A stretch of 64,000 nucleotides of DNA from a plasmid. This document shows, piece after piece, positions 17,588-61,671 of the stretch. Position 1 is the stretch's first letter; every line of letters begins with the position of its first letter. The position numbers and the translations under genes were made by a program. The DNA is taken from sequence record NZ_CP027239.1. One strand, given 5' to 3'. The notes beneath the pieces are model-generated. The model ran no database searches and had not been told where the DNA came from. It was given only the letters and a program-made list of their open reading frames with translations.

Positions 17588-19122
17588 ACGCCAGTTCAGG
17601 TCCGCTGATGGGGCGGGTTCGGCGGGATAATTGTCGTCATGGGCGAGGAAGGGTTGTTCGCCGCCGAGGAGTTCCGCGTCGAGCGGGCTGACCGGCAGGG
17701 CGAGGTCGAGCCGGTGGGCGCAGGCAAGACATTTCGGGCGTTCGACCCGGGCCAGGGGTTGTTGCTGCCGCCGTCGCTGGATGACTGGCTTCCGGCCGAT
17801 CATCTGGCACGGTTCGTGGCGGATCTGGTCGATGAGCACCTGGATTTATCGCGGATCTACGTCTCCTACCAGGAGGGGCGCGGGGCCCCGCCGTACGATC
17901 CGCGGTTGATGGTGCGGTTGCTGATCTTCGGCTACACCACGGGGGTGCGCTCCTCCCGCGGGATCGAGAAGGCCTGCACCGACATCGTCGCTTTCCGGTG
18001 GTTGGCGGCCGGGGCGGCCCCGGACTACCGCGCGATCGCCAGGTTTCGCAAGAGGCACCTGGCCGCGCTGGGCAACCTGTTCTTGCAGGCGTTGGCGTTG
18101 TGCCAGGCCGCCGGGATGGTCACGCTTGGACAGGTCGCGCTGGATGGGACGAAGCTGCGGGCGAACGCCTCCAAACGCAAGGCCATGTCGTACGCGCGGC
18201 TGACGGACAAGGAGAAGGTACTGGCCCAGGAGGTCTCCGATCTGCTGGCCGCCGCCGAGGCCATCGACAAGGCCGAGGACGCCAAGTTCGGCAAGAACCG
18301 GCGCGGGGACGAGCTGCCCGATGAGCTGGCCCGCCGAGAGTCTCGCCTGGTCAAGCTGCGCCAGGCCAAAGCTGCTCTGGAAGCCGACGCCGCCGCCGAT
18401 GCGGCGGAGAAGGCTGAGGCTAAGGCCCGCGGTAAGGGCGAAGACGAAGACACCGTCGCGCAGAAGGCCGCTGAGGCCGCCGAGCGCGCCACGCCCAGGC
18501 CGAAGGCCCAGCGCAACTTCACCGACCCGGAGTCGAAGATCATGCTCACCGGGGACGGGTCGTTCGCTCAGTGCTACAACGGCCAGGCCGTGGTCGATGC
18601 CGCCCATCAGATCATCGTGGCGGCCGAGGTCAACGACTGTGCCGCCGACGTCGGCAACCTCATCCCCATGACCGAGCAGGCCATCAGCAACACGGGGCAG
18701 GCCCCGAAGCAGATGCTCGCCGATGCCGGGTACTGCTCAGCCGCGAACCTCGCCGCCTCCGCCGAGGTCACCGGCGAGCAGGGCACCGAGTTCTTCATCG
18801 CCACCGGACGACAGCGCAGCGGGGAACCGGCGCCGATCGCCCCCCGGGGACCGATCCCGGCCAGCGCCACGGACAAGCAGCGCATGGCCCGCAAGCTCGC
18901 CACGAAGAAAGGCCGAGCGGTCTACGCCCGGCGCAAAGCGATCGTCGAACCGGTCTTCGGACAGATGAGCACCCTGCAGAACGGCAAGCAACTCCTGATT
19001 CGCGGTCTGGACGCCGCCCGCGGTGAATGGCTACTGCTCGCTGCCTGCCACAACCTGCGAAAGCTCCACGGTCATATCGGCGCCACCGGGCTCGGCGGCC
19101 TCCAGATCGCCTGAACTGGCAG
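17588..19122 (+). mobile_element. IS1182-family insertion sequence (about 1.5 kb) with terminal inverted repeats
   Basis: Left end ACGCCAGTTCAGG (17588-17600). Right end CCTGAACTGGCAGG (19110-19123) is its reverse complement (11-12 of 13 match). Single transposase ORF between them. Flanking genes are on the opposite strand. Confidence 0.7.
17639..19114 (+). CDS. IS1182-family (IS5 superfamily) DDE transposase
   Basis: N-terminal InsH-like region PPYDPRLMVRLLIFGYTTGVRSSRGIEKACTDIVAFRWLAAG...YRAIARFRKRH. Central Lys/Ala/Glu coiled-coil insert. C-terminal DDE region NFTDPESKIM...CYNGQAVVD...IIVAAEV...LADAGYCS. Confidence 0.85.
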   Translation: MGEEGLFAAEEFRVERADRQGEVEPVGAGKTFRAFDPGQGLLLPPSLDDWLPADHLARFVADLVDEHLDLSRIYVSYQEGRGAPPYDPRLMVRLLIFGYTTGVRSSRGIEKACTDIVAFRWLAAGAAPDYRAIARFRKRHLAALGNLFLQALALCQAAGMVTLGQVALDGTKLRANASKRKAMSYARLTDKEKVLAQEVSDLLAAAEAIDKAEDAKFGKNRRGDELPDELARRESRLVKLRQAKAALEADAAADAAEKAEAKARGKGEDEDTVAQKAAEAAERATPRPKAQRNFTDPESKIMLTGDGSFAQCYNGQAVVDAAHQIIVAAEVNDCAADVGNLIPMTEQAISNTGQAPKQMLADAGYCSAANLAASAEVTGEQGTEFFIATGRQRSGEPAPIAPRGPIPASATDKQRMARKLATKKGRAVYARRKAIVEPVFGQMSTLQNGKQLLIRGLDAARGEWLLLAACHNLRKLHGHIGATGLGGLQIA

Positions 19123-22906: not shown

Positions 22907-23603
22907 GGTGCGCATTTGAAGCTACAGATGTAATCTGATCGCGCGGTACTCGGACGTTTTCGCTGCGAAGATCGCTCCGGCTCACAATGACTTACGAGCC
23001 CATCGGATACTAACTGCATTGGGGAAGTTGGCCCTCACCTCCGCCCGGGTGAGGGCCAACCCTATTCCCCGGAACACCGAAGGCGATAGGCCTCGGCGCT
23101 GCGGAGCCCGGACCCCGCACCGAGGAACCCCACGACAGATCTCCGCTAGGCACACGCCCCCAACCGGGGCCGCATGTACGCGCGGTCGACCAGTACCGAC
23201 ACCCGGGTCCGATCCATCACCACCGTGATCGGTACGCGCCCAGACCTGCCCTCCCCGGCCCCGAGCCCACAGTCGGTGCGAACCCAGACTGCGGTCGCCT
23301 CTCCAGAGGCCCTCGCGCGACCTGCACCCCGCCAGCCGCCCACCACCGAGCCCCGATCGGCCAGACACCAAACTCGCGGAACAGCCCGACGGTGTCGGCG
23401 CCGGCAGCCACTGAAACCGGCCCGGGGCTCGTCTACACTCGGCCGCACGGCTCATCGAGCCTTCCCGCACGGGTTCCCAGGGGTGGGTTCCATGCGCGGG
23501 AGTAGAGCGCCCCACCGCACAGGCTGGGGCGCTCTACGTTTCGATCGGGGCGACACGAGGCACCCTTACCCTCATCGTCAGACACTCACGACGGAGGAAC
23601 CCC

Positions 23604-24284
23604 GTGGCCACGACCGCCCCACCTCGCAGAACTCTCGACGACGCCGTCGACCGGGGCCTTTTGTTCGCGCACGAGCACCAGCTGCACTTCGTATCGCTGG
23701 TCGGCGCCACACCCCGGTGGCGACTCATCCCCACGCTGGGGACCTCCCAGTTCGAGGGACGCCGCAGCTTGGACTGCGACACCCAGATCATCGGAGTGGT
23801 CAAAGCCGGCACCTGGGAATGGGCGTGGGCATCACCGAACGTCACTCGTGGCCGCCAGATCCAGGCCGAGGCCGCGTACCGCTTCGGCCAGGCCCGCAAC
23901 ATGCCGGTGTTCACCACCCCGCGATTGGAGCTCGAAGCCGGAGACGCCCGGCGGCTCGTCATCGGCGCATCGTCGATCCACCGGTGGTGGACGTCGTTCG
24001 CGTTCGGGGTGGACGGCATGGTCATGCACGGGGCGCTACGTCACCCCGCCCTCGAACTGCCCGACCCGACACCGGCGACCGTCCGACAGACCCTCGACCC
24101 GAGCCACTGGACCACTGCGCCTCACAACGCACGACGCGCAATCCGTTCGTACGCCACGTTGAGGAAACTGACCCGCCAGGAGCGCCGCGACCGCACGGCG
24201 ATGCGATTGAGCTGGGCCAATCAGTGGCAAGTCACCGCCCACTTCACCGCAGACGGCGCCCTGGAAGGTGTTACCGGCGACTAG
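23604..24284 (+). CDS. hypothetical protein (226 aa)
   Basis: GTG 23604 after GGAGGAA. Coding-like composition. ORF 23174..24307 is in a different frame and is probably spurious. Confidence 0.45.
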   Translation: MATTAPPRRTLDDAVDRGLLFAHEHQLHFVSLVGATPRWRLIPTLGTSQFEGRRSLDCDTQIIGVVKAGTWEWAWASPNVTRGRQIQAEAAYRFGQARNMPVFTTPRLELEAGDARRLVIGASSIHRWWTSFAFGVDGMVMHGALRHPALELPDPTPATVRQTLDPSHWTTAPHNARRAIRSYATLRKLTRQERRDRTAMRLSWANQWQVTAHFTADGALEGVTGD

Positions 24285-24404
24285 TCGGAAAGCCGTCGAT
24301 GCTCTAGCCACACACGCGTCGAGCAGGCATGCTGGTGTGCAGACCGGCGCTCCCCAGCGAAGCCAAGCAGGGCGCGCATCCGGCCAGCGCCCCGGAGGGC
24401 CTCC

Positions 24405-24695
24405 ATGCCAATCCGTATCTCCCTCGCCGACAACTCCCTCGCCGGCGACAGTGACGACCACTTCATCGCCACCGGACACATCCGTACTGCACTGCGGCAC
24501 CCCGACGGCGCGGTGGTGGTGTTCCACGACGGCACCGTCACCGCTGGCTCCTGGTCCGCGGTGTGCCGCGCATACCCGCAGCCGATGCGCCGTGTCTTCG
24601 CACGTCGGGAGCTGGACATGCTCGTGGACGCGGTAGGCATTGTCGCAACCGCCAAGCTGGCCAACACCCAGATCGTTGACTGGGTGATCGCCTAA
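24405..24695 (+). CDS. hypothetical protein (96 aa)
   Basis: GGAGGG RBS before ATG 24405. Confidence 0.4.
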   Translation: MPIRISLADNSLAGDSDDHFIATGHIRTALRHPDGAVVVFHDGTVTAGSWSAVCRAYPQPMRRVFARRELDMLVDAVGIVATAKLANTQIVDWVIA

Positions 24696-25027
24696 ATCGC
24701 CTGGACCGACGTCACCTCGGCGCCTGTCGTGTTCGCGCCCAGCAGGGCCGTGTCGCTGCCGGTGGCGTACATCTCGACGATGTCGGCACTGAACTTCTCG
24801 ATGAGCTCGCCGGAGAGCTCCTCGCAGAACGGCACCACCACATCCCGGCCGAAACGGCAGACCCGGCCGATGTCGGGCACGGGAGCCCCACACTGGCGGG
24901 CCCACACATACGCGGCCGTAGCCACGCGCCTGGACTCAGCGAACCCACCGGGCCCGGAAACCGTCACCAGCAGTGTCGTTGCCTCCCCGACCTGGGTCGG
25001 GCGCGCCCACCGGGGAAGCCCGGTCAC
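24692..25027 (-). CDS. hypothetical protein translationally coupled to the AAA+ ATPase (111 aa)
   Basis: GTGA start/stop overlap with the AAA+ gene (25024-25027). Confidence 0.5.
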   Translation of the reverse strand: MTGLPRWARPTQVGEATTLLVTVSGPGGFAESRRVATAAYVWARQCGAPVPDIGRVCRFGRDVVVPFCEELSGELIEKFSADIVEMYATGSDTALLGANTTGAEVTSVQAI

Positions 25028-26304
25028 TGCAGCTCCTGCTGCACCAGTGGCCCGACGGGCGAGCCGAACACCTCGACCAGGACGTCGAGCACCTCAGGCT
25101 GGTGCTGCGGCTCCGGGCACGCAGCGAACAGCATCGACGCCGCGACTTGGACGCCCATCCCCATGTCGAGAGCCTTCTGCGACTTGAGCAGATGGTCAGT
25201 TTGGGGCGCCCACCCTGGCCGGCGCCCGGACTGGCCCGCCACCGCGGCCCGCGCAGCCAGCAGCCGGCCCACGCGGACCAGGCGGGCATCGACACCCAGT
25301 TCGGCCACGAGGCCGTAGTCAGTGGTGGCTTCGAGCTGCAGAGGAAAGCGGCGCAGAATTGCCGCATCGAGGGGCCGCACACCGACCCCGGTCTGGTTGT
25401 AGGTGACGACGATGTGGAATCCGTCGGCGGCGTGCAGCACCGGCTCGTCGGGCAGTGCGTCGATGACGAGCATCCGACGGTCGTCGGCGGGGCCCATGAG
25501 CACGTTGATCGTGTCGGATGGCGCTCGAGTCAGATCGTCGATCAGCAGCACCTTGCCCTGACGCATGGCCTCGGCCAGTGGGCCGTACGCGAACCGGTAC
25601 CCGGGACCGTCTTCGCGCGGGATCCACTTACCGACCAGGTCATCGACGGCCAGGTCGCCGTGCCCTTCGACGACAATCAGGTCTTCTCCGAACGCCGCCT
25701 CGGCGAGCATGGTCTTGCCGTTGCCCGACGCGCCCACGATGCGGGTGAACAGGGAGCCACGCGCCTGGCGCAGGATCTGCACATCGGTAGTGTCGCCGAC
25801 CGGCCGGGGACGGTAGACGCGCCCGTCGCGCAGTGGCACCGACTCCAGCGGGCCGGCGAAGCTGGCGGGTGTGGACGAGGGGGAGGGCTGGACCGGTTCG
25901 GGATCCGGTGTCGCCTCTAATTCCGGCACCGCGAGGGCCGCCTGAACACTGCCTTCCAGGTCACCGAGCATCGACGCGGCCGGGGGCGATCCCTCCAGCA
26001 GCTGCACCAACTGCTCGTGCGTGGGTCCTTCATCGTCGACCTGCAGGTAGGCCACATCGGCGAACGCCCGCGCGGGCGCCGCCTCGGTGAACGCCTCCCC
26101 GGCCTCTTTGCTCAGCAGGGACGCATCCGCCGAGAGCATCAGCCCCGACTGCCCTCGGTAAGCGGCCACCAGTTGCGGGCCGGCCTCCGGGTCACACCAC
26201 AGCAGCATCGCATCGGGCTGGCCTGCGCCGCGGGGCGCCTTGCCCCTACGTCTCCACCAGGCGACGGGCAGCGTGGTGGTCAGGGCAGTGGCAGTCGAGG
26301 TCAT
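25024..26304 (-). CDS. MoxR-like AAA+ ATPase (AAA_5 type), module 1
   Basis: Walker A GASGNGKT. Walker B VLLIDDL. Sensor-1 IVVTYNQ. Arg finger RRF. ATG 26304 with a GAAGGA RBS. The upstream part of ORF 25024..27135 has no support. Paralogue of 57516..58748. Confidence 0.8.
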   Translation of the reverse strand: MTSTATALTTTLPVAWWRRRGKAPRGAGQPDAMLLWCDPEAGPQLVAAYRGQSGLMLSADASLLSKEAGEAFTEAAPARAFADVAYLQVDDEGPTHEQLVQLLEGSPPAASMLGDLEGSVQAALAVPELEATPDPEPVQPSPSSTPASFAGPLESVPLRDGRVYRPRPVGDTTDVQILRQARGSLFTRIVGASGNGKTMLAEAAFGEDLIVVEGHGDLAVDDLVGKWIPREDGPGYRFAYGPLAEAMRQGKVLLIDDLTRAPSDTINVLMGPADDRRMLVIDALPDEPVLHAADGFHIVVTYNQTGVGVRPLDAAILRRFPLQLEATTDYGLVAELGVDARLVRVGRLLAARAAVAGQSGRRPGWAPQTDHLLKSQKALDMGMGVQVAASMLFAACPEPQHQPEVLDVLVEVFGSPVGPLVQQELQ

Positions 26305-26475
26305 GGGCGGGGATCCTTCATCGTGTCGGAGTGCGCGGCTAGGGTGTGGCGCCCAGTATGCGGGGCCACTGTGGCGGTGTGGCACCACAGCGGCACGGGC
26401 GCAGGGCACCATCACTGGCACCGCAAACCGCCTACCCCTGGAGCTGTTTCCCCGTGATCTCCTCGCGCCCACTCG

Positions 26476-27251
26476 TGACCTACCCACTACGGGAGGCGTC
26501 TGTCGTCGAACAGGACTCCGCCACCGCGGTCGCGGAACGCTTGGACCGGGCCGCCGACCGCGGAATGGACGAAGCCACCGTCGCCTACCCAGTCCCGCCC
26601 GGGCGGGTCGACATGAGCCAGGCGATGCAGTCCGATGCGCAGGCCTACCTCGGGCTGCCGAGTTCGGCGACCCCGTTCCGTAGAAGACAGCGACGCATCC
26701 TGCGGCGCCCCGCCCAGCGGGTCGGCATCGCCATCGACCATTCGCCCTCGATGCACGACGTCCTGGACGCGGCCGTCGCTGCGGCGTGGGTAGTGGAGGT
26801 GGCCGCCTCGCGCGCCCGGCAGGCACGCAGCACCGTTGCACTGTCGACGTTCGACACCACGGCCCACCTGGTCGAGTCGGGCTCGACCACGCACGTACCG
26901 GTGCTTTCGACCGCCGCTCCCGGCGCCGGGAACCACTCCTCAGCGCTGCCGGAGTCGCTCGAGCTGCTGCGGGGGCAGCTGGAGCTGGACCACTTCCCTG
27001 ACGACTCCCGGCTGGTCGTGGTGATCTCTGACAGCGTGCTGGCAGAGCCGGAGCGGGTCGCCCACGCGATCGACGATCTGCACGCAAGTGGCGTGCGGGT
27101 GCTGTGGATCTCGATCGACGAAGACGTCCCCGCATACCTCCCGGCCGCGACGGCCACTCTCACCGCGACCAAGGAGACGCTGATGCGGGCCTTGCCCGAC
27201 GCGGTCACCCAGGCACTGAGCGACACCGAGAACCCGGAGGGATACCAATGA
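26476..27251 (+). CDS. vWA (von Willebrand factor A) domain protein, module 1
   Basis: MIDAS DxSxS motif GIAIDHSPSM. Downstream T and D positions (LSTFDT, VVISDS). Divergent from the AAA+ gene. Start uncertain: GTG 26476 or ATG 26564. Confidence 0.55.
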
Positions 27252-28270
27252 CCGCCTGGCAGGACAGCCTTTCGCGTGGCGACAGCATGGTCGCCTGGTC
27301 TCCGGGCCGCGCAGCCCGGCAGGCCGTGGCCTGGCGGTACGCGTTCGCGCACTGGCTGACTTCTGATCAGGCCGCACTGATGCGGTACGTGCCAGAGCAG
27401 CAGCAGGCGCTGAGTTGGTGGGCAGCCACACGCGGTGATGAGCGCGCCGACATCTCCGAAGTGATGCCGGCCTGGCTGTCGACCTTCTACGGGGTGGACA
27501 CCACCGATCTGGAGGTCAGCGCGGACGATTCACTGTCGCTCACGGCCCGCCGCATCGGCAGACTGTGCGCACTGCGCTCGCAACAGATCCGCACCGCCGG
27601 CCCAGTCGTGGTGGACCCCACCTCCCAGGCCGCACTTCTGGCGATGGTCGACACCGACCGATACCGGGGGCCTGACGCCAAGGCCCTAGCCGCACTGCCT
27701 GACACGGGACTGCTGGTGTTCCCTCACCCCATCCTGCGAACCGGGAAGGTGGAAGGCCCGACCCTGCTGGCCGAACCCGCCACCCCATCGCCCCTACGAG
27801 CCATCTGCTGGTCGAGCGAGGCCACAACGCAGGGGCCCGCCATCAGGGTGCTGGACCTGGCCGACATGAGCGGGCAGTGGGGCCGCACCGGCGACGCGGC
27901 GTTCGATGCGCAGGTGCGGCAGCAACTGTCAGCGGCGCATCAGCAACTGCCGCCGCTGATGTTCCACGGGGAGGTGGCCGTAGTTGCCGGCGCGGTTGAC
28001 GGCGCGCAGCAGGCCCAGCGATCCCTGGTCAGTGCCGGCAAGGAGCGGCGGGGCCGGGCGGCCTCACCGTGGTCACCCCAGACTGTTCTGGTCGACGAGG
28101 ACGGGCTCCTGGCGTCGCGGGTGCTCAGTGTCTTCGCCCATGCGGTTACTGCGCCACTACTGGAAGGCAGTGAGAAGACTGTGCCCACGCCCGGTTCCGC
28201 GCGCGATTCGGGGGCGGGCAGCCTGACCGCAGTGAAGGTCTACAACCGGCCTGGGGGATCTGCGCCGTAG
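27248..28270 (+). CDS. hypothetical protein coupled to the vWA gene (340 aa)
   Basis: ATGA overlap with the vWA stop. GGAGGG RBS. Trp-rich N-terminus. No recognisable domain. Confidence 0.55.
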   Translation: MTAWQDSLSRGDSMVAWSPGRAARQAVAWRYAFAHWLTSDQAALMRYVPEQQQALSWWAATRGDERADISEVMPAWLSTFYGVDTTDLEVSADDSLSLTARRIGRLCALRSQQIRTAGPVVVDPTSQAALLAMVDTDRYRGPDAKALAALPDTGLLVFPHPILRTGKVEGPTLLAEPATPSPLRAICWSSEATTQGPAIRVLDLADMSGQWGRTGDAAFDAQVRQQLSAAHQQLPPLMFHGEVAVVAGAVDGAQQAQRSLVSAGKERRGRAASPWSPQTVLVDEDGLLASRVLSVFAHAVTAPLLEGSEKTVPTPGSARDSGAGSLTAVKVYNRPGGSAP

Positions 28271-28287: not shown

Positions 28288-29082
28288 TTACCGGATCTGC
28301 AGCCTCGGAACATTCGGCACCTGCACTGGGGCCAGCTGCACATCCGGTGCAGGAGCCGGTGCAGGAGCCGGTGCGGGCGCCGGGGCAGGCGCAGGGGCCG
28401 GTGCGGGCGCAGGGGCCGGTGCGGGCGCAGCCTGCCGGACCGGCGGCTGATACTGCTGCACTGGCGGCTGATACTGCTGAACAGGGGGCTGATACCGCGG
28501 AGCAGGGGCCGGTGCGGGGGCCGGTGCGGGGGCCGGGGCAGCCTGCCGCGCAGCCGCCGGCGGAGACGACGCGGCCCTTGCCGCAGCCTCCCGCTCCTCG
28601 GCCTTCTTCCGCTCCTCTTCCTTGCGCTTGTCCTCTTCCTTCTTCCGCGCCTCTTCCTTGCGCTTCTCCGCCTCGGCTTCACGCTCGGCAACGAACTCCG
28701 ACATCGCCTCCGAGTCGAAACCCGACTGGGGCCCCGCGACCGGCTTGCGGTCCACGATCGGCGCAGCAGCCGCCTCCGGGGCGGCATCTTCCTCCGCCGC
28801 CACCGATTGGACATTGCCGGCGTCGCCACTGGCGTTGCCCAACACCATCCAGCCGCCGGCGCCGATGACGGCCGCCAGGGCGACACCCGAAGCCAGCTTC
28901 AACGCCGGCGACTTGGAGGACCGCGCGACGGACGAGGACGCGGCAGGGCGGGGACTGGGCTCGGCGCGCTCACCCGTTCGCGAGTCGGCCTCGAGGACTG
29001 CCTGGTCCTCAACATCGGCCTTCTGCGCGCGCTCAGCCTGAGCGGCTCGAATCGCTTCCGCTCGCGACATCGACTGCGTCAT
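28288..29082 (-). CDS. membrane-anchored Pro/Ala-repeat protein
   Basis: Predicted transmembrane segment (LASGVALAAVIGAGGWMVLG). Lys/Glu-rich charged segment. Three YQPPVQQ repeats and long (AP)n tracts. GGGGAGGGG RBS. Confidence 0.6.
   Translation of the reverse strand: MTQSMSRAEAIRAAQAERAQKADVEDQAVLEADSRTGERAEPSPRPAASSSVARSSKSPALKLASGVALAAVIGAGGWMVLGNASGDAGNVQSVAAEEDAAPEAAAAPIVDRKPVAGPQSGFDSEAMSEFVAEREAEAEKRKEEARKKEEDKRKEEERKKAEEREAAARAASSPPAAARQAAPAPAPAPAPAPAPRYQPPVQQYQPPVQQYQPPVRQAAPAPAPAPAPAPAPAPAPAPAPAPAPAPDVQLAPVQVPNVPRLQIR
28344..28545. repeat. coding tandem repeats: (GCCGGTGCNGGNGC)n and 3 x 21 bp
   Basis: GCCGGTGC(A/G)GG(A/G)GC reiterated at 28344-28436 and 28503-28545. ggcggctgatactgctgcact / ggcggctgatactgctgaaca / gggggctgataccgcggagca at 28441-28503. 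Confidence 0.6.
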
Positions 29083-30986: not shown

Positions 30987-33248
30987 ATGAGCGAGAAGTC
31001 GCCCTCCATCATCACGCCACGCACCGTTCGCCGGCCTGAGCCGGGCAAGCGCGGGGTACTGACCCGCGCCCCGTTCGTCGCTGTAGACGTCGAGACGACG
31101 GGGACCGCTGACGTATGCCGCGTGATCGAAATAGCGGCCGCCCGGTACAGCCCCGACGGGACCTTGATCGACACCTACTCGTCGTTGGCTAACCCCGGCA
31201 TGAACGTGCCCCTCAACCCTGCTGCGCAGAAGGTGCACGGCATCACCCCGGCCCAGGTGTGGGCGGCGCCGCCCATCGAGACGGTTCTCGCCGAGTTCCG
31301 CGAGTTCGTGGCGGGCCAAGGCCTCGTGGCCCACAACCTCAGTTTCGAGTCGAGGTTCCTGAGCAGCGAATACCACCGGCTGGAGCAGGCCCCGCCCCAG
31401 TGGCAGGGCGTGTGCACTCTGGCTGCCGCACGCCGCCACTTCAAGTCCCCGTCCAACAAGCTCGCGGCGCTGATTGAGCTGTTCAACTTGCCCGCGATCA
31501 ACTCGCACCGCGCGTTGGACGATGCGAAGGCGTGTGGCCTGCTGCTGTCAGCGATGATGGCGGCCCGAAATCTCACCGACCTCGATCCCCTTACCGCCCC
31601 GGTCGTCGACAACGATCCCGGGCCGCGGGAACACCTCACGGTCTCGGCCACCGCGCCCACGCCCTCTGCGGACCCGGCTCTGACCCGCGCAGCTTTCGGA
31701 GGGCACGCGCCCACCGATGAGCAGTCCGCCATCGTGGACAGCTTCCAGCAAGGGCAGCAGTTGACGGTCTCAGCATGTGCCGGGTCGGGCAAGACCTCTA
31801 CCGTGCTCGGCCTGGCCCGACTGGAGGCGGCCCGTAACCCCGGCCGACGGGGGCTGTACATCGCGTTCAACGCCTCCGTCGCCCGTGAAGCCAAGGGCCA
31901 GTTCCCGCAGCAGGTGCGAGCCTCGACAGCGCACTCGTTGGCGTTCAGCAGCCTCAAGGACGGGCCGCACGCGGATCTGCTGGGAAAGCTCAACGCGCCC
32001 CGCCCACGTTGGCGCGACACCATCGACGCGCTGGCGGCCACCAAACTGTGGCTGCCAGCGGACTACGGCGGGCCGCGCGTCCTCTCGGAGTACGTGATGG
32101 CTCGGCTTGCTCTGCGCACCCTCGAGCAGTTCTGCCGCACCACTGACGAGGGGATCGGCCCGCACCACGTGCCGGAGCAGACGGGCGTGGAGGGGCCGGC
32201 GCGGGAGCTCATGGTCGACCAGGTGCTTCCCCTGGCGCGGAGGGCATGGCGGTTGGCGCTGAACCCGCACCGATTCGAGGTGCAGTTCCAGCATGACCAC
32301 TACCTCAAGCTGTGGGCCGATACCGGACCGAAGGTCGGGAGGGAAGACGACTACATCGTGGTCGACGAGGCTCAGGACCTGAACCCGATCCTGCGCGAGA
32401 TCGTGCTGTCGCAAACCCACCTGCAGCGGGTCATGGTCGGAGATAGCGCCCAAGCGATCTACGGCTTCACCGGCGCCAAAGACGCCCTGCACGACGTGCC
32501 TGATGCGGTCGAGCGGGCTCTGACCCAGTCCTGGAGGTTCGGCGACACCATCGCCGAGGCCGCGAACCTGTATCTCGAGCAGCTCGGAGTGGCGATGCGG
32601 GTACGGGGCAACCCCGGCAAGCATTCACGGCTGACCGCTGGGGATCGGCCGGTCGACGCCGTGCTGTGCCGCACCAACGCTGACGCGATCGGCGAAGTGA
32701 TCGCTGCGCAGAAGGCCGGCAAGGCCACTGCCCTCGAGGGGGACCGGGCGGCGGCGCTGCGGTTCTGCGACTCCGCGGAACAGCTGCAGGCCGGTATCTC
32801 GCCGAGGGATCCGTCGCTGGCGGCGTTCTCGAGCTGGCTGGACCTGGTGGAGTACGTGGAGAACAGTCCCGGCGTTTCGGAGATCAAGACGCTGGTGGAG
32901 CTGGTCGACGACCACGGCCTGGACGTGGTGCGCGATGCGATGGAGAACCTGGTCCCCAGATCACGTGCGGCGCTAATTTCAGGTACTGCACACAAGGCCA
33001 AGGGGCTGGAGTTCTCGCGGGTGCGCATCAACGGGAACTGGCAGATCGACGAGCCCAGGCCCGACGTCAGCGAAGAGGCACGCAACGCCGAGCTGATGCT
33101 CGCCTACGTCGCGCTGACCCGCGCCATGGACGAACTCGACCCCGGGCAACTGCTCACCGACATCGAGCGGTCCCGCATCCAGCCCGACCTTCCCGGCACG
33201 CCCACCGCCACCGACGGGGGCCTGTTCACGCTTCCCCTCACCGGCTGA
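30987..33248 (+). CDS. DnaQ-like 3'-5' exonuclease (DEDDh) fused to a UvrD/PcrA-type SF1 helicase
   Basis: Exo I VAVDVETTG. Exo II HNLSFESRFL. Exo III HRALDDAKA. Helicase motif I ACAGSGKTST. Motif II VVDEAQD. Motif V/VI region GTAHKAKGLEFSRV. Confidence 0.8.
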   Translation: MSEKSPSIITPRTVRRPEPGKRGVLTRAPFVAVDVETTGTADVCRVIEIAAARYSPDGTLIDTYSSLANPGMNVPLNPAAQKVHGITPAQVWAAPPIETVLAEFREFVAGQGLVAHNLSFESRFLSSEYHRLEQAPPQWQGVCTLAAARRHFKSPSNKLAALIELFNLPAINSHRALDDAKACGLLLSAMMAARNLTDLDPLTAPVVDNDPGPREHLTVSATAPTPSADPALTRAAFGGHAPTDEQSAIVDSFQQGQQLTVSACAGSGKTSTVLGLARLEAARNPGRRGLYIAFNASVAREAKGQFPQQVRASTAHSLAFSSLKDGPHADLLGKLNAPRPRWRDTIDALAATKLWLPADYGGPRVLSEYVMARLALRTLEQFCRTTDEGIGPHHVPEQTGVEGPARELMVDQVLPLARRAWRLALNPHRFEVQFQHDHYLKLWADTGPKVGREDDYIVVDEAQDLNPILREIVLSQTHLQRVMVGDSAQAIYGFTGAKDALHDVPDAVERALTQSWRFGDTIAEAANLYLEQLGVAMRVRGNPGKHSRLTAGDRPVDAVLCRTNADAIGEVIAAQKAGKATALEGDRAAALRFCDSAEQLQAGISPRDPSLAAFSSWLDLVEYVENSPGVSEIKTLVELVDDHGLDVVRDAMENLVPRSRAALISGTAHKAKGLEFSRVRINGNWQIDEPRPDVSEEARNAELMLAYVALTRAMDELDPGQLLTDIERSRIQPDLPGTPTATDGGLFTLPLTG

Positions 33249-51322: not shown

Positions 51323-51338
51323 CGAGGGGCTCGGTCGC

Positions 51339-51713
51339 TCAGTCGTCGGCCAAAGTGGCGGCGACAACGGCGCGGGCGAACTCGTCCGAGACGCGGTAAT
51401 GCACCGACCGGCCGATCATCTCGTACTCGACGATGCGCGCCCGGCGCAGTGACCCCAGGAGCGACGACACTCGATTCTGGGACAGGCCGATGTCCTCGGA
51501 GAGCTGGGTGACAGTGCTGTACGGGCTCAAATACATGGCGGTGACCAGTCGCAGTCGGGCGGGATTGCCCAACAGCGTCAGGACGGCTGCCCGCTTGCTG
51601 GCGGCGGACTCGCTCAGCGGGAACTCGGTCTCAGTTTCGGTCAGGATCGTCACGAGTTCGATGGTAGCCCGACTCCATGCTGCCGCCCGGTCACCGAGCG
51701 GGGCGGCGGGCAA
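51339..51713 (-). CDS. ArsR/SmtB-family transcriptional regulator
   Basis: LGNPARLRLVTAMY...STVTQLSEDIGLSQNRVSSLLGSLRRARIVEYEMIGRSVHYRV is a winged-HTH ArsR signature. Convergent with the ATPase. Confidence 0.6.
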   Translation of the reverse strand: MPAAPLGDRAAAWSRATIELVTILTETETEFPLSESAASKRAAVLTLLGNPARLRLVTAMYLSPYSTVTQLSEDIGLSQNRVSSLLGSLRRARIVEYEMIGRSVHYRVSDEFARAVVAATLADD

Positions 51714-51838
51714 ATCCCGCCTGAACTGGCCGGAAGCTACTCAGCGGGCGGCGGCATGACCCGCCCTTATGGTGTGTGCACCAAACCTCGGACCGTCCCC
51801 ATTTGTGGCGGTCTACCAACCAGGGAGGACTCGACCCA

Positions 51839-52197: not shown

Positions 52198-52211
52198 TCG
52201 GCGTATGACTG

Positions 52212-52619: not shown

Positions 52620-52630
52620 CGGCGCAACGG

Positions 52631-52675
52631 AAAGCGGCCCCGCCCGATACGGGTGGGGCCGCTTCTCTTGTCGCG
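52631..52675. terminator. hairpin terminator between convergent genes
   Basis: gcggccccgcc-cgatacgggt-ggggccgc followed by ttctcttg. Confidence 0.4.
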
Positions 52676-52676
52676 G

Positions 52677-55093: not shown

Positions 55094-55113
55094 CAGACCT
55101 GGAGGAGACATCA

Positions 55114-57515: not shown

Positions 57516-58748
57516 TCACCAGGTGCTGGGCACCGACTGGTGAGTAGCGCCGGATACCAGCGCCCCTCCGGCGGCGAAACGGTCGCCGAACCGCCGACGG
57601 AACAGCGCCAGCGTTTCCTCCCGGTCCGCCAGGGTCGGCGCCTTGGACACCAGCGCTTCCGCGGCGAACTCGACGTCGACCGCGGTAGCCAGGTCCCGCA
57701 CGGCCAACAGCTCACGCAGCGACGGAACCCACCTGTCGAGACCGTCGGCCCGGTCCGCGTCCGCCCGCCGCTTCAACGCTTCCGCCACGTCGATCACCAC
57801 GGTCGGTACCTCCAACTGGTGGGCGGTGGCGAAGTCGGTGGGCACCTCGATCACCAGGGCCATGCGGTTGCGTACCGGCTCGGATAAGCCCGGGCCGTTG
57901 CCCGGGTTGAACGTCAGGATGAGCGTGAACCCGTCGGCGGCCTGCAGATGCTGGGTGCCGGGCCGGTCGATCACGTCGATACTGCGGCGCGTGTCCAGCG
58001 CCGGATGCAGCGCCGTCTGCACCCCCTGGTGCAGGGCGCCGGCATCGTCGAGCAGGAGAGGGCGTCCCTGTTCCATGGCCCGCCACAGGGGCCCGTCGAT
58101 CCACTTGAACGGGCCTTCGTCGCCCGGTACCGGCTGGTGCAGTCCCACCAGGTCCGGCCATGTTGTCGCTGTCGAGCAGGGCACGATGATCAGCTCGTCA
58201 CCGAGCGCTTCGCGCACCAGGGTCGTCTTGCCCGAACCCGGCGGGCCACCGAGGGCGATCGGCTGTCCGGTCTCGGCGATCGTGCGGATGATGTGGACGT
58301 CGGAGCGGCCGGCCAGGGTGCGGGGAATGTAGGTGTCCCGCATCTGGCGGGCCAGGTCCGGTGACAGTTGGACGATCATCTCCAGGAACGTGTCTGGGTC
58401 GGCCCGCATCGTCCTCTCCGCGTTCACGGCGAGCGCGAACTCGCGGGCGATCACCTCCGCTGGCCTCTGCGTTGTCGCCAGGTCGTCGTCGATGTTGATC
58501 ACTCCGGGCCGCACGTGGTGGGGCACTTCTCCGGGAGCGCACTGTTGCTCGATCTCGCGGGCCGCCGCCCTCAGCGCCTCGACTCGAGCCTTCGGCGAGG
58601 GAGGGAGAGGGTCATGTCGGGACAGGGGATCGGTGGCGCTGCCCCACACCCGAATCCCGGTGTCGGTGACGAGGTTGACGTAAGTCGAGTCGACCTCATC
58701 GTCGAACTGGTCCTCGTCGGGGACGAACCCAAACCCGAACGCCAGCAT
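57516..58748 (-). CDS. MoxR-like AAA+ ATPase (AAA_5 type), module 2
   Basis: Walker A GGPPGSGKTT. Walker B PLLLDDAGA. Sensor-1 LILTFNPG. Arg finger VRNRM. Collinear with 25024..26304 (GDELIIV.. versus GEDLIVV.., ..GPLWRAMEQGRPLLLDD versus ..GPLAEAMRQGKVLLIDD). Confidence 0.8.
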   Translation of the reverse strand: MLAFGFGFVPDEDQFDDEVDSTYVNLVTDTGIRVWGSATDPLSRHDPLPPSPKARVEALRAAAREIEQQCAPGEVPHHVRPGVINIDDDLATTQRPAEVIAREFALAVNAERTMRADPDTFLEMIVQLSPDLARQMRDTYIPRTLAGRSDVHIIRTIAETGQPIALGGPPGSGKTTLVREALGDELIIVPCSTATTWPDLVGLHQPVPGDEGPFKWIDGPLWRAMEQGRPLLLDDAGALHQGVQTALHPALDTRRSIDVIDRPGTQHLQAADGFTLILTFNPGNGPGLSEPVRNRMALVIEVPTDFATAHQLEVPTVVIDVAEALKRRADADRADGLDRWVPSLRELLAVRDLATAVDVEFAAEALVSKAPTLADREETLALFRRRFGDRFAAGGALVSGATHQSVPSTW

Positions 58749-58919
58749 CTGTCGTGAACGTCCCTTCGTGTGCCACCCCTGCGGCCGGGGTCGTTGCCGC
58801 GATCGTATCGGCCCACCATGCCGCCGCTAGGCGGGCTACGCGACCGCCGGTCGGCGGCATGCCCGGCTGATACAACAGGTGCCTGCATCCGTTGCCGGCA
58901 GCGAGGAGTGGCCGCACCC

Positions 58920-60548
58920 ATGGCGCTATGGTCCGTCACCGAGGAGTCGGTGCTGCTCATGCTGCAGGGCTGGGGAGCGGCGGTGGAGCAGGTCCGCATC
59001 GTGCCCACTGGCTCGTCCGGGGCGCCGGCGCCGGTGTACCTCGATGGCGACACCGCGGTGATCGAAGCCGAACGGGCCGGCCTTCCCCGTTCCGCGCAGG
59101 GTGTGAAGGTCGACTCGCTGACCCATCAGCTCAACGATCCCCGTGCAGCCGCCCGATTGGCGGCGGTGTGCGCCCCCTTAGTCACCTCGACCTGGCGGCA
59201 CGCCGGCCTTCCGTCGGACCCGCGGCTCGCCGGGTTGATGCTCGAGCTCGACCAACTGCGCGCCGAGGCCCAACTGCGGCGCCGCCAGCCCTCCCTGCGG
59301 CTCCTGCTGCCCACGATCAGCACGTGGCTGGCCCGCACGCCGATCTCCGGCAGTGACGATGCCGCCGCCTACCAACTGCTGACCGCCGTGTGCCCGAGAG
59401 CGGACGCCCTGGTGTTTCCCACCTCGACCACAGAGCACGTGAAGCCCGCACTCGTGGACTACCTCGGACCCGCCGTGATGCGCGAGTACGTCACCACATG
59501 GCGGCGCATCCTGGCGGCCCCGGACCAGCGCTCCGCAGTGATGTCGCTGGCCGACACCTGGCTCCAACTGGCCGATGCCCGGCTTCCCCGCCACCACGAC
59601 CGCACGTCCAATCCCGAACTGCTGTCCAGGGTCAGTCGCCGCGCCACCTCCGACCTCGAGCAGGCCGAGGCGACTGCACTGGAGGCGGTCGCCTCGCTGC
59701 GCGCCGACCTGGACGCCACCGCCACGTCAGAGCGCCGCACCACAGAACTGGACCCCGACCATGGGATCGCAGGCGCCGGAACAGGCCTGCCCGCGCACCG
59801 GTCCCTACGACACCGGCCCGCCACGGAAGAAGATCACCTTCTGCGAACGCAGCTGCGCGCGGCACTGTCGGTAGCCAAACGGCGCCAGCTATCCACCGTG
59901 GACCACCCCACCCAAGCACCCACCGGCAGGACCGACACTCGCGAACTGGTCCGCATGAGCGCACAGCAGCACGCCGGCACCCCGGTCACCGCCACCCCCT
60001 GGACCCGGCACATCCCCGAGATGGACGACCAGCCCGACATCCGGGTCGCCGCCGTGCTGGATACATCCGCGTCCATGGCACCGTGGCTGGAGTCGGCGAC
60101 TGCGTTGATGTGGGCAGTGGCCTGCGCAGCCCGCGACCTCGGCGGATCCGCCACCGTATGGGGGTTCGGCGGCGACGCCTTCGAGATCGTCCGCATCGGC
60201 TCGGCGCCCCACCTCGTCCCGCAGATCCGCGACACCGGCGCCGGCTCCGACGGATACGCCGAGGCCGTGAGCCGGGCCTGCGACTCCGCGGATCTGATCG
60301 GCAGTCGAGGCGCCCGCCTGCTGGTGGTGCTGACCGATGGCCGACTGAAAGACCCGGAGGAGGCCCGCCGACTGCAGCAGACCCTGGCCGACGCCGTTGC
60401 CAGCGGCGTCACCGTCCTATGGGCCCTGACCGGAGGCACCACCAACGCTCTGGTCCCGGACCAAGCAATCGTCGCTCAGGGGGTGACCCCGCGCCGCTTC
60501 GCCGAAGCCGTGAACCGCGTCCTGATCAACACCGTCAGCGCCACCTGA
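58920..60548 (+). CDS. large protein with C-terminal vWA (MIDAS) domain, module 2
   Basis: VAAVLDTSASM is DxSxS. VVLTDG supplies the downstream MIDAS Asp. About 350-aa N-terminal region of unknown function. GAGGAG RBS. Divergent from the AAA+ gene. Confidence 0.6.
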   Translation: MALWSVTEESVLLMLQGWGAAVEQVRIVPTGSSGAPAPVYLDGDTAVIEAERAGLPRSAQGVKVDSLTHQLNDPRAAARLAAVCAPLVTSTWRHAGLPSDPRLAGLMLELDQLRAEAQLRRRQPSLRLLLPTISTWLARTPISGSDDAAAYQLLTAVCPRADALVFPTSTTEHVKPALVDYLGPAVMREYVTTWRRILAAPDQRSAVMSLADTWLQLADARLPRHHDRTSNPELLSRVSRRATSDLEQAEATALEAVASLRADLDATATSERRTTELDPDHGIAGAGTGLPAHRSLRHRPATEEDHLLRTQLRAALSVAKRRQLSTVDHPTQAPTGRTDTRELVRMSAQQHAGTPVTATPWTRHIPEMDDQPDIRVAAVLDTSASMAPWLESATALMWAVACAARDLGGSATVWGFGGDAFEIVRIGSAPHLVPQIRDTGAGSDGYAEAVSRACDSADLIGSRGARLLVVLTDGRLKDPEEARRLQQTLADAVASGVTVLWALTGGTTNALVPDQAIVAQGVTPRRFAEAVNRVLINTVSAT

Positions 60549-60627
60549 GCAGGGCGCCGCACCTACACCACAACTACGACAGCCCGCCGCTACCGTGACC
60601 CCACCGCAGCCAGAAAGGACCCACCCC

Positions 60628-61671
60628 ATGACCGCCCCAGCGCACAACAGTGACGTCACCCCGATCACCGCCATCACCGCGGACCAGCTAGACACCCTCG
60701 ACCCGAACCTGCTCACCCCGCCCCTGGTGACCAGCGACGGACACCACGACGAGATCGGCGCCGCCCACGGCCGAGTACTGCCGATGATCGGCCGGTGGCG
60801 GCCGTACGTGGTGGACGTCAACGCCACCAAGCTCGCAGGCAAGGGCACCCGCATCTACGCCGACACCGCCGACGACGCCGTGGCGATGCTCGTCGGCGGC
60901 GACGCGCCCGCGGCGATCGCCGAGCTGCGCGCAGCCAGAGACGACCTCGGCGTGGACCCCGCTCCCGAACCGCCACCGACCAGGGACGAGTTGCTCCTGA
61001 TCGGCGCGGACGATGCCGACGACGAGGCCCTCGCGTTCGTCGAAGAGCTCGACCCTCAAACCCAGCAGGCCTACGACGAGTACCGGGCTCGGCGTGACCG
61101 GCTGGAGGCGGCGCAGATGCGGGTCGCTGCGCTGCTGACCGACCATGCGACCGGGGTGCGGATACGGCTGCAGCAGCAGCTCAACGCCGCCGCTGTCGAT
61201 GACGGCCGCTGGGAACGCCTGGACGAGGACGAACGCGACGAGCTGACTGCCTGCGCGGCCACGGGCGAGCAGGGGCGGCGCCCGTTCGGGATTCCGGAAA
61301 TGGTGCCGTTCTTCGACGAGGACGGCGAGGAGGCCGGCGAGGTCGCGCGGGGCGAGTGGCGGGCCGATGTGCCGCTGGTGTGTCTGCGCACTGACTACCT
61401 GCCGTTCACGGGCACGGCGTCGCCTCTGTCGGTGGTGACAGGGACCGCCCCCACAGGGGCGGAGTTCTGGGTGCCGGGCGATCCGAATCTGGTGTGGCTC
61501 AACCCCGCCGATCCCGCTGACTACCTGCAGTCACTTGCCGATGCCGGGCTGGTGGAGCTCACGGAGCGGCCGGTCGACCACGCCGTCGAGCTGATGCGTC
61601 CGTGGCTGAGGGAGAAGCGGCAGCGCGACCTTGAGCGGGCGCAGGCGGCAGCCGCCAGTCAGGGCGACTAA
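60628..61671 (+). CDS. hypothetical acidic protein downstream of the vWA gene (347 aa)
   Basis: AAAGGA RBS before ATG 60628. No recognisable motif. Confidence 0.45.
   Translation: MTAPAHNSDVTPITAITADQLDTLDPNLLTPPLVTSDGHHDEIGAAHGRVLPMIGRWRPYVVDVNATKLAGKGTRIYADTADDAVAMLVGGDAPAAIAELRAARDDLGVDPAPEPPPTRDELLLIGADDADDEALAFVEELDPQTQQAYDEYRARRDRLEAAQMRVAALLTDHATGVRIRLQQQLNAAAVDDGRWERLDEDERDELTACAATGEQGRRPFGIPEMVPFFDEDGEEAGEVARGEWRADVPLVCLRTDYLPFTGTASPLSVVTGTAPTGAEFWVPGDPNLVWLNPADPADYLQSLADAGLVELTERPVDHAVELMRPWLREKRQRDLERAQAAAASQGD

What the first reader, a model, noticed from the sequence alone, without database searches (positions are those of the whole stretch)
24692..28270. Divergent MoxR-like AAA+ / vWA module with coupled unknown partner genes (copy 1)
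Gene order: a 111-aa unknown (minus) coupled by GTGA overlap to the AAA+ ATPase (minus). Divergently: a vWA protein with a DxSxS MIDAS motif (plus), coupled by ATGA overlap to a 340-aa Trp-rich unknown (plus). This four-gene layout matches the NTP-dependent vWA–MoxR 'ternary' conflict or signalling systems reported from actinobacteria, where the AAA+/vWA core comes with a dedicated associated protein. The two coupled unknowns are candidates for such partners or effectors. They have no recognisable domain and could be new.
Basis: partly seen in the sequence, partly recalled or inferred. Interest (0 to 1): 0.75.

Follow-up and report, generated by a model that had tools for sequence, protein, structure and literature searches.

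The report
Plasmid AAA+/vWA module with orphan partners
A large Dietzia plasmid carries a real four-gene module: a NorQ/CbbQ-like motor ATPase, a metal-site (vWA) adaptor protein and two small orphan proteins that are tightly co-translated with them; it belongs to the plasmid's conserved backbone, and nothing found here marks it as one of the described "ternary" defence systems.

Summary
At 24692-28270 there are four genes: a 111-aa protein and a 426-aa AAA_5 ATPase on the minus strand (GTGA overlap), and divergently a 265-aa vWA protein with DHSPS and a 340-aa protein (ATGA overlap).

The window is a Dietzia plasmid (100% match to D. cinnamea and to the Dietzia sp. oral taxon 368 plasmid). 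The block, with both 4-nt overlaps, is kept in six lineages down to 24-44% protein identity.

The ATPase is closest to midasin, NorQ and CbbQ. The vWA identity rests on an invariant MIDAS motif, a sub-threshold Pfam hit and profile hits to solved vWA domains.

p340 is an orphan: 21 cluster representatives among 1.84 billion, with no Pfam, PDB or confident fold match. p111 has a generic ferredoxin-like fold.

Beyond the Dietzia lineage the core is ATPase + coupled small protein + a nearby, usually long, vWA protein. The p340 homologue sits 1.5 to 10 kb away or is absent.

No VMAP-C, iSTAND, effector domain or PADLOC hit was found, so membership of the ternary conflict systems is not supported.

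Best reading: a plasmid-backbone MoxR-class remodelling machine with lineage-specific accessory proteins. It is a new variant of a known kind, of moderate interest.

The parts
24692..25027 (-). p111: small cytosolic partner protein. GTG start, overlapping the AAA+ stop by 4 nt (GTGA).
25024..26304 (-). AAA+ ATPase, 426 aa. Lineage-variable N-terminal domain (~aa 1-165), AAA_5 core (aa ~170-330), C-terminal helical lid.
   Evidence: Pfam AAA_5 2.2e-20. Nearest solved sequences are midasin AAA modules (2.8e-27), NorQ (8e-13) and CbbQ. Walker A G-x-x-G-x-G-K-[TS]; Walker B hhhhD-[DE] (DD here, DE in 48%-identical relatives); sensor-1 N303; R319 in the RRF motif invariant. PHROG 'ATPase' and CobS-like families. 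100% identical to WP_165001190.1, 'AAA family ATPase [Dietzia]'.
26305..26453 (.). 149-bp divergent intergenic region, the presumed shared promoter/operator. GGTGTGGCRCC repeats at 26343-26353 and 26376-26386; TGGCACC(A/G)CA at 26380 and 26416.
   Evidence: Repeats. The region aligns across relatives with 43-88% AAA+ identity, with invariant blocks. No sigma-70 consensus match. The motif is not enriched elsewhere in the window. Its function is inferred only.
26454..27251 (+). Short vWA protein, 265 aa. Conserved basic pre-vWA segment (PPGR...TATPF/W...RRR), then a vWA domain with MIDAS D95-x-S97-x-S99 (nt 26736-26750) and D193.
   Evidence: VWA_CoxE 1.3e-5, 25.2 bits against a cutoff of 26.4. 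MIDAS residues and D193 invariant in 11 short and long homologues. The family profile hits solved vWA domains: PTMP1 1.9e-5, then midasin MIDAS domain, TRAP, integrin alpha-M and CobT. NCBI and UniRef name an identical sequence 'VWA domain-containing protein'.
27248..28270 (+). p340: orphan 340-aa cytosolic protein. ATG overlaps the vWA stop (ATGA); its Shine-Dalgarno sequence (GGAGGG) lies inside the last vWA codons.
57516..58748 (-). Paralogous copy 2: AAA_5 ATPase (31% identical to copy 1 over the AAA core).
   Evidence: Local tblastn; Pfam AAA_5 4e-14. Orthologous, including the N-terminal domain, to the ATPase of Corynebacterium crudilactis pCRULAC1.
58758..60548 (+). Copy 2 long vWA protein (~540-596 aa), with the vWA/MIDAS domain at the C-terminus (a NorD/CbbO-like layout).
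   Evidence: 31% identical to the copy 1 vWA over residues 379-567. The MIDAS DxSxS aligns. No Pfam hit on its own.
60526..61671 (+). Copy 2 third gene (347-381 aa), in the position that p340 occupies in copy 1 but not homologous to it.
   Evidence: hhalign probability 0.1-0.3% against the p340 profiles. 29% identical to the 306-aa gene in the same position in pCRULAC1.

Best explanation
This is a conserved backbone module of a family of large Mycobacteriales plasmids; the window is a Dietzia plasmid. It encodes a MoxR-class AAA+ remodelling machine.

Shown:
- An AAA_5 ATPase with intact Walker A and B, sensor-1 and Arg-finger positions.
- A partner protein with a complete, invariant MIDAS motif in a vWA domain.
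- A small ferredoxin-like protein co-translated with the ATPase.
- An orphan 340-aa protein co-translated with the vWA protein.

Inferred, by analogy with NorQ/NorD, CbbQ/CbbO and midasin:
- The ATPase forms a hexameric ring.
- The vWA protein docks on the ring through its conserved basic pre-vWA segment.
- The MIDAS metal site grips an acidic side chain of a client protein.
- ATP hydrolysis pulls or twists the adaptor and so remodels the client.

In the Dietzia lineage the vWA protein has lost the ~340-aa N-terminal domain found in its Rhodococcus, Gordonia and Streptomyces orthologues, and p340 has been placed directly behind it. I therefore propose that p340 is the client, or a client-binding adaptor supplied in trans. 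I propose that p111, with its invariant N-terminal LPxW motif, is a regulator or cofactor of the ATPase ring.

The biological role is most likely a plasmid life-cycle function, such as assembly or remodelling of a plasmid-encoded complex during establishment, replication/repair or transfer. It is probably neither host housekeeping nor an abortive-infection system. Two paralogous modules per plasmid, with different third genes, would serve different clients.
For: Domains and motifs.

Coupling: both 4-nt overlaps and the divergent layout are kept in six lineages, while identity to the window falls to 44% (AAA+), 33% (vWA), 27% (p340) and 24% (small protein). Shine-Dalgarno sequences sit inside the upstream genes' last codons.

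Backbone context: FtsK/SpoIIIE, DnaG primase, exonuclease-UvrD, MTase-SNF2 helicase, DUF87, SMC. The same context is syntenic in Dietzia, Rhodococcus and Corynebacterium plasmids.

Distribution:
- All close AAA+ homologues are from Dietzia or lie on large actinobacterial plasmids.
- AAA+ plus coupled small gene plus nearby vWA persists in Rhodococcus, even where p340 is absent.
- Every PLSDB plasmid with a p340 homologue (7 of 7) also has the AAA+.
- Long vWA orthologues have a NorD/CbbO-like layout.

Mechanistic template and precedent: the NorQD cryo-EM work (PMC13036017). MoxR-like/vWA clusters are already known in the backbones of pCAR1, R478, Rts1 and SXT/R391 (PMC2642839).
Against: - No client has been identified experimentally, and no interaction was tested.
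- The p340 structure prediction failed (pLDDT 46), so its role is a guess.
- p340 is uncoupled or absent in many plasmids that carry the AAA+/vWA core, so it cannot be an obligatory component.
- Conservation of gene order among these plasmids partly reflects shared ancestry of the backbone.
- The Walker B in the window copy is DD rather than DE, which may lower ATPase activity.
- The vWA call is below Pfam's curated threshold.
Confidence: 0.55

Rival explanations
1. A previously undescribed plasmid-borne conflict system (defence or anti-defence) built like the vWA-MoxR ternary systems. The AAA+/vWA switch would control a lineage-specific third component (p340 in copy 1, an unrelated protein in copy 2) that senses or attacks an invader or the host's defences.
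For: - The gene after the vWA gene differs between lineages within an otherwise preserved frame: p340, the copy 2 third-gene family, a 379-aa protein in Streptomyces, a beta-propeller in R. pyridinivorans, or nothing.
- p340 and p111 evolve faster than the AAA+/vWA core.
- There are two paralogous copies with different third genes, as Kaur et al. describe for paralogous ternary systems.
- It sits on a mobile element, next to likely anti-restriction functions (MTase-SNF2 in the window; ArdC in L001).
Against: - No effector domain of any kind was found: no peptidase, nuclease, TIR, cyclase or adaptor domain.
- No PADLOC hit.
- No VMAP-C or iSTAND match.
- The vWA protein has no fused C-terminal domains.
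- The ATPase is of the AAA_5 type.
- The module is a stable, syntenic backbone element, not an island with patchy distribution.
Confidence: 0.2
2. A cofactor or metal-insertion chaperone of the NorQD / CbbQO / CoxDE / CobST kind, serving a specific plasmid-encoded metalloenzyme.
For: NorQ and CbbQ are among the nearest solved relatives, after midasin, and the vWA profile touches CoxE and CobT. The AAA+ hits the phage CobS-like PHROG.
Against: No nitric oxide reductase, Rubisco, CO dehydrogenase, CobN or other candidate metalloenzyme lies in the conserved neighbourhood in any locus. No CbbQ_C domain was found. The neighbours are DNA-metabolism and transfer genes.
Confidence: 0.1
3. p340 is functionally unrelated to the AAA+/vWA pair. 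It would be a separate backbone gene that merely landed behind the vWA gene in the Dietzia lineage.
For: In Rhodococcus pB and pYLC1 the homologue is 9-10 kb away in its own transcription unit. In Gordonia it is 1.5 kb away behind two other small genes. It is absent within 20 kb in R. opacus and R. rhodochrous plasmids.
Against: - The ATGA overlap and the embedded Shine-Dalgarno sequence are kept over divergence down to 27% p340 identity.
- Arrival of p340 coincides with loss of the vWA N-terminal domain.
- p340 is never found without the AAA+ on the same plasmid (7 of 7 PLSDB plasmids, plus Dietzia and Gordonia).
Confidence: 0.15

Closest known systems
NorQ/NorD and CbbQ/CbbO (MoxR-class AAA_5 ATPase with a vWA-MIDAS adaptor)
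   Same: AAA_5 core with the same motifs. A partner with a MIDAS vWA domain. In the orthologues outside Dietzia and in copy 2 the partner is ~590 aa with the vWA domain at the C-terminus, as in NorD and CbbO. The likely mechanism is ring plus adaptor remodelling a client (PMC13036017, PMC9976466).
   Different: No CbbQ_C domain. There is an extra ~165-aa N-terminal domain on the ATPase. No NOR or Rubisco client is present. It is plasmid-borne. It has a coupled small ferredoxin-like protein and, in Dietzia, a short vWA protein plus p340. Sequence identity is low (E-values 1e-9 to 1e-13 over the AAA core only).
vWA-MoxR 'VMAP' and iSTAND ternary conflict systems (Kaur, Burroughs, Iyer, Aravind 2020, PMC7159879)
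   Same: An AAA+/vWA couple plus at least one further dedicated protein. It occurs in Actinobacteria. There are paralogous copies with different third genes. The accessory proteins evolve rapidly.
   Different: No VMAP-C, VMAP-M or iSTAND domain. No effector or adaptor domains on either the vWA protein or the third protein. The ATPase is AAA_5-type rather than MoxR-proper (AAA_3 only 0.034). The setting is a plasmid backbone.
MoxR-like/vWA gene clusters in backbones of proteobacterial conjugative elements (pCAR1 ORF100-103, R478, Rts1, SXT/R391; PMC2642839)
   Same: A multi-gene cluster with a MoxR-like AAA+ and a vWA protein, conserved in the backbone of large conjugative elements, with no assigned function.
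   Different: Those ATPases carry a CbbQ C-terminal domain and are proteobacterial. Homology of the accompanying unknown genes to p111 or p340 was not tested. No proteobacterial hit appeared at E <= 1e-10, except one CbbQ-family hit in Eleftheria.
CobS/CobT, and phage CobS/CobT-like pairs (PHROG 249)
   Same: An AAA_5 ATPase plus a vWA partner, also found on mobile elements (phages).
   Different: No CobN and no tetrapyrrole context. The similarity is restricted to the AAA core.
Midasin/Rea1
   Same: Best-scoring solved relative of the AAA core (2.8e-27, summed over several AAA modules). The vWA family profile weakly hits the midasin MIDAS domain (E = 0.03).
   Different: Midasin is a eukaryotic single-chain giant with six fused AAA modules, working in ribosome biogenesis.

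Membership tests
MoxR-class AAA+ (AAA_5; NorQ/CbbQ/midasin branch) | AAA_5 Pfam model above the gathering score | tested here: met
   73.5 bits against a cutoff of 22; copy 2 scores 53.2 bits.
MoxR-class AAA+ (AAA_5; NorQ/CbbQ/midasin branch) | Walker A, Walker B, sensor-1 Asn and Arg finger conserved | tested here: met
   GxxGxGK[TS]; hhhhD[DE] (DD in the window, DE in relatives); N303 and R319 invariant across 11 sequences.
MoxR-class AAA+ (AAA_5; NorQ/CbbQ/midasin branch) | Helix-2 insert characteristic of the MoxR/dynein/chelatase clade | not tested
It aligns to midasin, NorQ and CbbQ through this region.
MoxR-class AAA+ (AAA_5; NorQ/CbbQ/midasin branch) | Genomic pairing with a vWA-domain protein | tested here: met
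   Divergently adjacent in all Dietzia-lineage loci, and in Rhodococcus pB and pYLC1, Gordonia, Streptomyces and Corynebacterium. 2-3 kb away in L017 and L018.
CbbQ/NorQ subfamily proper | CbbQ_C C-terminal domain and an adjacent client enzyme (Rubisco, cNOR) | tested here: not met
   No CbbQ_C hit. No such enzymes in the window or in related loci.
vWA domain with MIDAS | DxSxS ... T ... D metal-ion-dependent adhesion site | tested here: met
   D95, S97, S99 and D193 are invariant in 11 short and long homologues. The Thr position could not be assigned with confidence.
vWA domain with MIDAS | Significant match to a curated vWA model or to solved vWA domains | tested here: inconclusive
   VWA_CoxE 25.2 bits, below the 26.4 cutoff. 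The single sequence finds nothing in the PDB. The family profile finds PTMP1 vWA at 1.9e-5; its weaker hits are mostly vWA/MIDAS domains, alongside two designed proteins and one ribosomal protein.
VMAP ternary conflict system (Kaur et al. 2020) | Third protein with a VMAP-C domain (plus VMAP-M and an N-terminal peptidase, cyclase or adaptor domain) | tested here: not met
   No Pfam hit at E <= 0.1 for p340, for 21 family members, or for p111. Caveat: that the Pfam copy contains the VMAP-C/VMAP-M models rests on my memory of Pfam and was not verified here.
VMAP ternary conflict system (Kaur et al. 2020) | vWA component carrying variable C-terminal effector domains | tested here: not met
   The protein is 265 aa, and the vWA domain runs to within ~30 residues of the C-terminus. 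Long orthologues extend at the N-terminus, with no domain hits.
iSTAND ternary system | Third component with an inactive STAND NTPase | tested here: not met
   No NTPase or STAND-related hit in p340, p111 or the copy 2 third gene.
Known anti-phage defence systems (PADLOC-DB 2.0) | Any component matching a defence-system model | tested here: not met
   Zero hits for the four copy 1 proteins. Only short P-loop matches for the copy 2 ATPase.
MGE-backbone MoxR/vWA clusters (pCAR1 ORF100-103 type) | Conserved position in the backbone of large conjugative elements | tested here: met
   Syntenic in plasmids of Dietzia, Rhodococcus and Corynebacterium; a related AAA+/long-vWA locus also lies on a Gordonia genome contig.
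MGE-backbone MoxR/vWA clusters (pCAR1 ORF100-103 type) | Sequence homology of the four genes to ORF100-103 | not tested
   The pCAR1 sequences were not fetched. No Pseudomonas plasmid appeared in the tblastn search at 1e-10.

The most novel reading that the evidence does not exclude
The two AAA+/vWA modules would be a new class of plasmid-encoded conflict or establishment device. In it, a NorQ-like motor and a MIDAS adaptor load or activate interchangeable orphan third proteins (p340; the copy 2 third gene), which act on the recipient cell or on invading DNA. This would be a minimal 'ternary' system without any recognisable effector domain, with p111 as a new ferredoxin-fold regulator of MoxR-class rings.
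Probability: 0.15. Interest if true: 0.7.

Novelty: new variant of a known kind. Interest (0 to 1): 0.4.

Why it matters
MoxR-class AAA+/vWA pairs recur in the backbones of large conjugative elements, from proteobacterial IncP-7, IncH, IncT and SXT elements to these actinobacterial megaplasmids. No function has ever been assigned to them.

This locus offers a compact four-gene version that can be handled genetically. It has a short vWA protein, a candidate client supplied in trans (p340) and a new small ring-associated protein (p111). That could make the question of what MoxR/vWA pairs do for mobile elements directly testable.

It also defines two orphan protein families restricted to Mycobacteriales plasmids. 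If the module instead proves to be a defence or anti-defence device, it would extend the ternary vWA-MoxR theme to systems with no known effector domains.

Tried and rejected
- Near-identical DNA search in PLSDB: no match. The Dietzia plasmid is evidently not in that collection.
- PADLOC: nothing.
- NCBIfam: only a far sub-threshold GvpN match (21 bits against 266.8). Gas-vesicle function rejected, since there are no gvp genes.
- McrB-like restriction: rejected. The partner is a vWA protein, not a McrC nuclease.
- CobS/CobT chelatase: rejected. There is no CobN and no tetrapyrrole context.
- afdb50 fold library: unavailable.
- p340 against the copy 2 third gene, the Streptomyces 379-aa third gene and the N-terminal domain of long vWA proteins: hhalign probabilities <= 0.5%. 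A gene-fission origin of p340 from the long vWA N-domain is therefore not supported.
- First genome scan with the wide p340 alignment: failed for lack of a conserved stretch. The narrower alignment found only three species genomes.
- Sigma-70 promoter scan of the intergenic region: no match; not informative for Actinobacteria.
- Intergenic repeat motif: not enriched elsewhere in the window.

Full report
**Observation.**
The window is high-GC (about 0.64-0.72). The ORF list and a third-codon-position GC frame plot support four genes:
- p111, 24692-25027(-)
- an ATPase, 25024-26304(-), 426 aa
- a vWA protein, 26454-27251(+), 265 aa
- p340, 27248-28270(+)

The junction sequences show the claimed overlaps directly. 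CAG-TGA / GTG-ACC gives GTGA, and CAA-TGA / ATG-ACC gives ATGA. An AGGAG or GGAGGG Shine-Dalgarno sequence lies inside the last codons of each upstream gene.

The 703-aa maximal ORF of the ATPase, as annotated in one GenBank record, is over-extended. The 62-aa RefSeq version of the small gene is truncated. Codons 1-49 of the 111-aa frame carry the same third-position-biased substitution pattern as codons 50-111, and they form part of the predicted fold.

**Identity of the element.**
The ATPase is 100% identical to a Dietzia cinnamea protein and to a protein on the 227,619-bp plasmid of Dietzia sp. oral taxon 368.

The window also encodes:
- an FtsK/SpoIIIE protein, a DnaG primase and an exonuclease-UvrD fusion
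- a 1566-aa methyltransferase-SNF2 helicase and a DUF87/HerA-like ATPase
- an SMC-like ATPase and a cutinase-domain giant protein

This is the backbone of a large actinobacterial plasmid, probably conjugative.

**The two recognisable proteins.**

*The ATPase.*
- It matches Pfam AAA_5 (2.2e-20).
- Among solved structures it is closest to midasin AAA modules, NorQ and CbbQ.
- Walker A, sensor-1 Asn and the Arg of the RRF motif are invariant. Walker B is hhhhD-[DE]: DD in the window, DE in 48%-identical relatives.
- A ~165-aa N-terminal domain has no match and is not conserved outside each lineage.

*The vWA protein.*
- It scores just under the VWA_CoxE cutoff (25.2 against 26.4 bits).
- D95-x-S97-x-S99 and D193 are invariant in 11 short and long homologues.
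- A family profile hits solved vWA domains: PTMP1 at 1.9e-5, then more weakly the midasin MIDAS domain, TRAP, integrin alpha-M and CobT.
- A basic segment just before the vWA domain (PPGR...TATPW...RRR) is conserved in all forms. It is my candidate for the ring-contacting element, by analogy with the NorD finger (PMC13036017). This is inference.

**The two unknowns.**

*p340.*
- The family is extremely rare: 11 clusters among 5.8 billion proteins, and 21 representatives among 1.84 billion in an exhaustive profile search.
- None of 22 members hits Pfam, and a profile search of PDB sequences finds nothing.
- It has no transmembrane segment.
- Conserved positions include several Trp and a set of polar residues. 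The recurring motifs are DQAAxMR, PEQ..A..WW and LPPM..NGEW.

*p111.*
- It folds confidently (pLDDT 80.6) into a beta-alpha-beta-beta-alpha-beta sandwich.

**Conservation.**
The four-gene block was found in:
- Dietzia sp. 179-F
- several metagenome contigs
- a contig binned as 'Candidatus Avipropionibacterium avicola'
- D. maris-like contigs

Against the window, identity falls to 44% (AAA+), 33% (vWA), 27% (p340) and 24% (small protein). Both 4-nt overlaps and the 90-165-bp divergent spacer are retained in all six lineages. The spacer itself is conserved and holds two GGTGTGGCRCC repeats.

This is good evidence for two divergent bicistronic operons and for co-production of each pair. The two unknowns evolve faster than the core.

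**Beyond the Dietzia lineage.**
Protein searches of PLSDB (tblastn) find the ATPase on 21 large plasmids of Rhodococcus, Streptomyces, Corynebacterium and others. They find p340 homologues on 7 Rhodococcus plasmids, all of which also carry the ATPase.

- In Rhodococcus pB and pYLC1 the ATPase is followed by a 141-146-aa small gene (4-nt overlap in pYLC1, an 11-nt gap in pB). This gene belongs to the same fast-evolving family.
- There the ATPase faces a ~590-aa protein whose C-terminal third is the vWA domain.
- The p340 homologue lies 9-10 kb away in its own unit.
- In R. opacus and R. rhodochrous plasmids the long vWA gene is 2-3 kb from the ATPase, and no p340 homologue lies within 20 kb.
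- In Gordonia aichiensis the p340 homologue is 1.5 kb downstream of a long vWA gene.

The conserved core is therefore ATPase + small protein + vWA protein. The short vWA protein with p340 attached is a Dietzia-lineage derivative.

p340 is not detectably related to the missing N-terminal domain of long vWA proteins, nor to the genes that follow the vWA gene in other lineages.

**Copy 2.**
Copy 2 comprises the ATPase at 57516-58748(-), a long vWA gene at 58758-60548(+) and a third gene at 60526-61671(+). It is 31% identical to copy 1 in the ATPase and vWA domains.

Together with the neighbouring SMC-like, 444-aa and DUF87 genes, it is syntenic with Corynebacterium crudilactis pCRULAC1.

**Comparison with the proposed family.**
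The VMAP and iSTAND ternary systems are defined by three components (PMC7159879; PMC10907252):
- a MoxR ATPase
- a vWA protein with variable C-terminal effector domains
- a third protein with VMAP-C (or an inactive STAND) plus peptidase, cyclase or adaptor domains

Here the vWA protein has no extra domain. Neither unknown matches any Pfam, NCBIfam, PADLOC or PHROG model. The module is a stable backbone element. Membership is therefore not supported.

Some resemblances remain: a third gene that is swapped between lineages, fast-evolving accessories, and paralogous copies with different third genes. These keep a conflict role alive as a minority hypothesis.

A closer conceptual precedent is the unexplained MoxR-like/vWA cluster conserved in the backbones of pCAR1, R478, Rts1 and SXT/R391 (PMC2642839).

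**Conclusion.**

The best-supported explanation is a plasmid-backbone MoxR-class remodelling machine that works like NorQ/NorD. p111 would be a ring-associated cofactor. In Dietzia, p340 would be a co-translated client or a trans-adaptor. The plasmid function it serves is not yet known.

It is a new variant of a known kind, with two orphan protein families. Interest is moderate.

Noticed in passing
window 57516-61671, with neighbours 49109-57476: A second, paralogous AAA_5 / long-vWA / third-gene module sits next to an SMC-like ATPase (55113-57476), a 444-aa protein (53759-55093) and a DUF87/HerA-like ATPase (49109-51322). The whole block is syntenic with Corynebacterium crudilactis plasmid pCRULAC1.
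   Followed up: partly
window 24692-25027 and 25024-27135: Public annotations disagree with the evidence. RefSeq calls the small gene 62 aa (WP_106386809.1), whereas the full 111 codons behave as coding. One GenBank plasmid record calls the ATPase 703 aa (C3V38_16625), although the coding signal starts near 26304.
   Followed up: yes
window 23135-23307: A frameshifted remnant (about the first 59 residues) of a 338-aa gene that is intact between the hydrolase and DUF6882 genes in related contigs L002 and L003. It is probably a decayed pseudogene in this plasmid.
   Followed up: partly
window 26305-26453: The divergent intergenic region is conserved across relatives. It holds two GGTGTGGCRCC repeats 33 bp apart and two TGGCACC(A/G)CA repeats, a possible shared operator. 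The motif is not enriched elsewhere in the window.
   Followed up: partly
window 23604-24695: A DUF6882 protein (23604-24284, +) and a 96-aa protein (24405-24695, +) converge on p111 with a 4-nt end-to-end overlap. Both accompany the module in Dietzia-lineage loci L001-L007 but not in L008.
   Followed up: no
window 28288-29082 (-): A 264-aa protein with one predicted membrane helix and long Pro-Ala and QPPV repeats converges on p340. A gene of similar size sits in the same position in Dietzia sp. 179-F, but without detectable similarity by tblastn.
   Followed up: no
window 4424-9124 (-), 11768-14284 (+), 30987-33248 (+), 41677-45288 (-): Large backbone proteins typical of conjugative megaplasmids: a 1566-aa methyltransferase + SNF2 helicase, an RNB (RNase II/R-like) protein with a dsRNA-binding motif, a DnaQ-like exonuclease fused to a UvrD helicase, and a 1203-aa protein with a cutinase domain.
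   Followed up: no
window 17639-19114 (+): An IS-type DDE transposase (DUF772 + DDE_Tnp_1) sits between backbone genes.
   Followed up: no
L010 (DVLP01000339.1): An 8.2-kb contig binned as 'Candidatus Avipropionibacterium avicola' carries the whole module at 67-76% identity to the Dietzia plasmid. It is probably a plasmid contig assigned to the wrong bin.
   Followed up: no
L013 10755-12062; L017/L018 17476-19237: Inserts differ between Rhodococcus plasmids. In R. pyridinivorans pB a PQQ-like beta-propeller gene follows the long vWA gene. In R. opacus and R. rhodochrous plasmids a DUF6573 gene and a 148-aa gene lie between the vWA gene and the ATPase gene.
   Followed up: no
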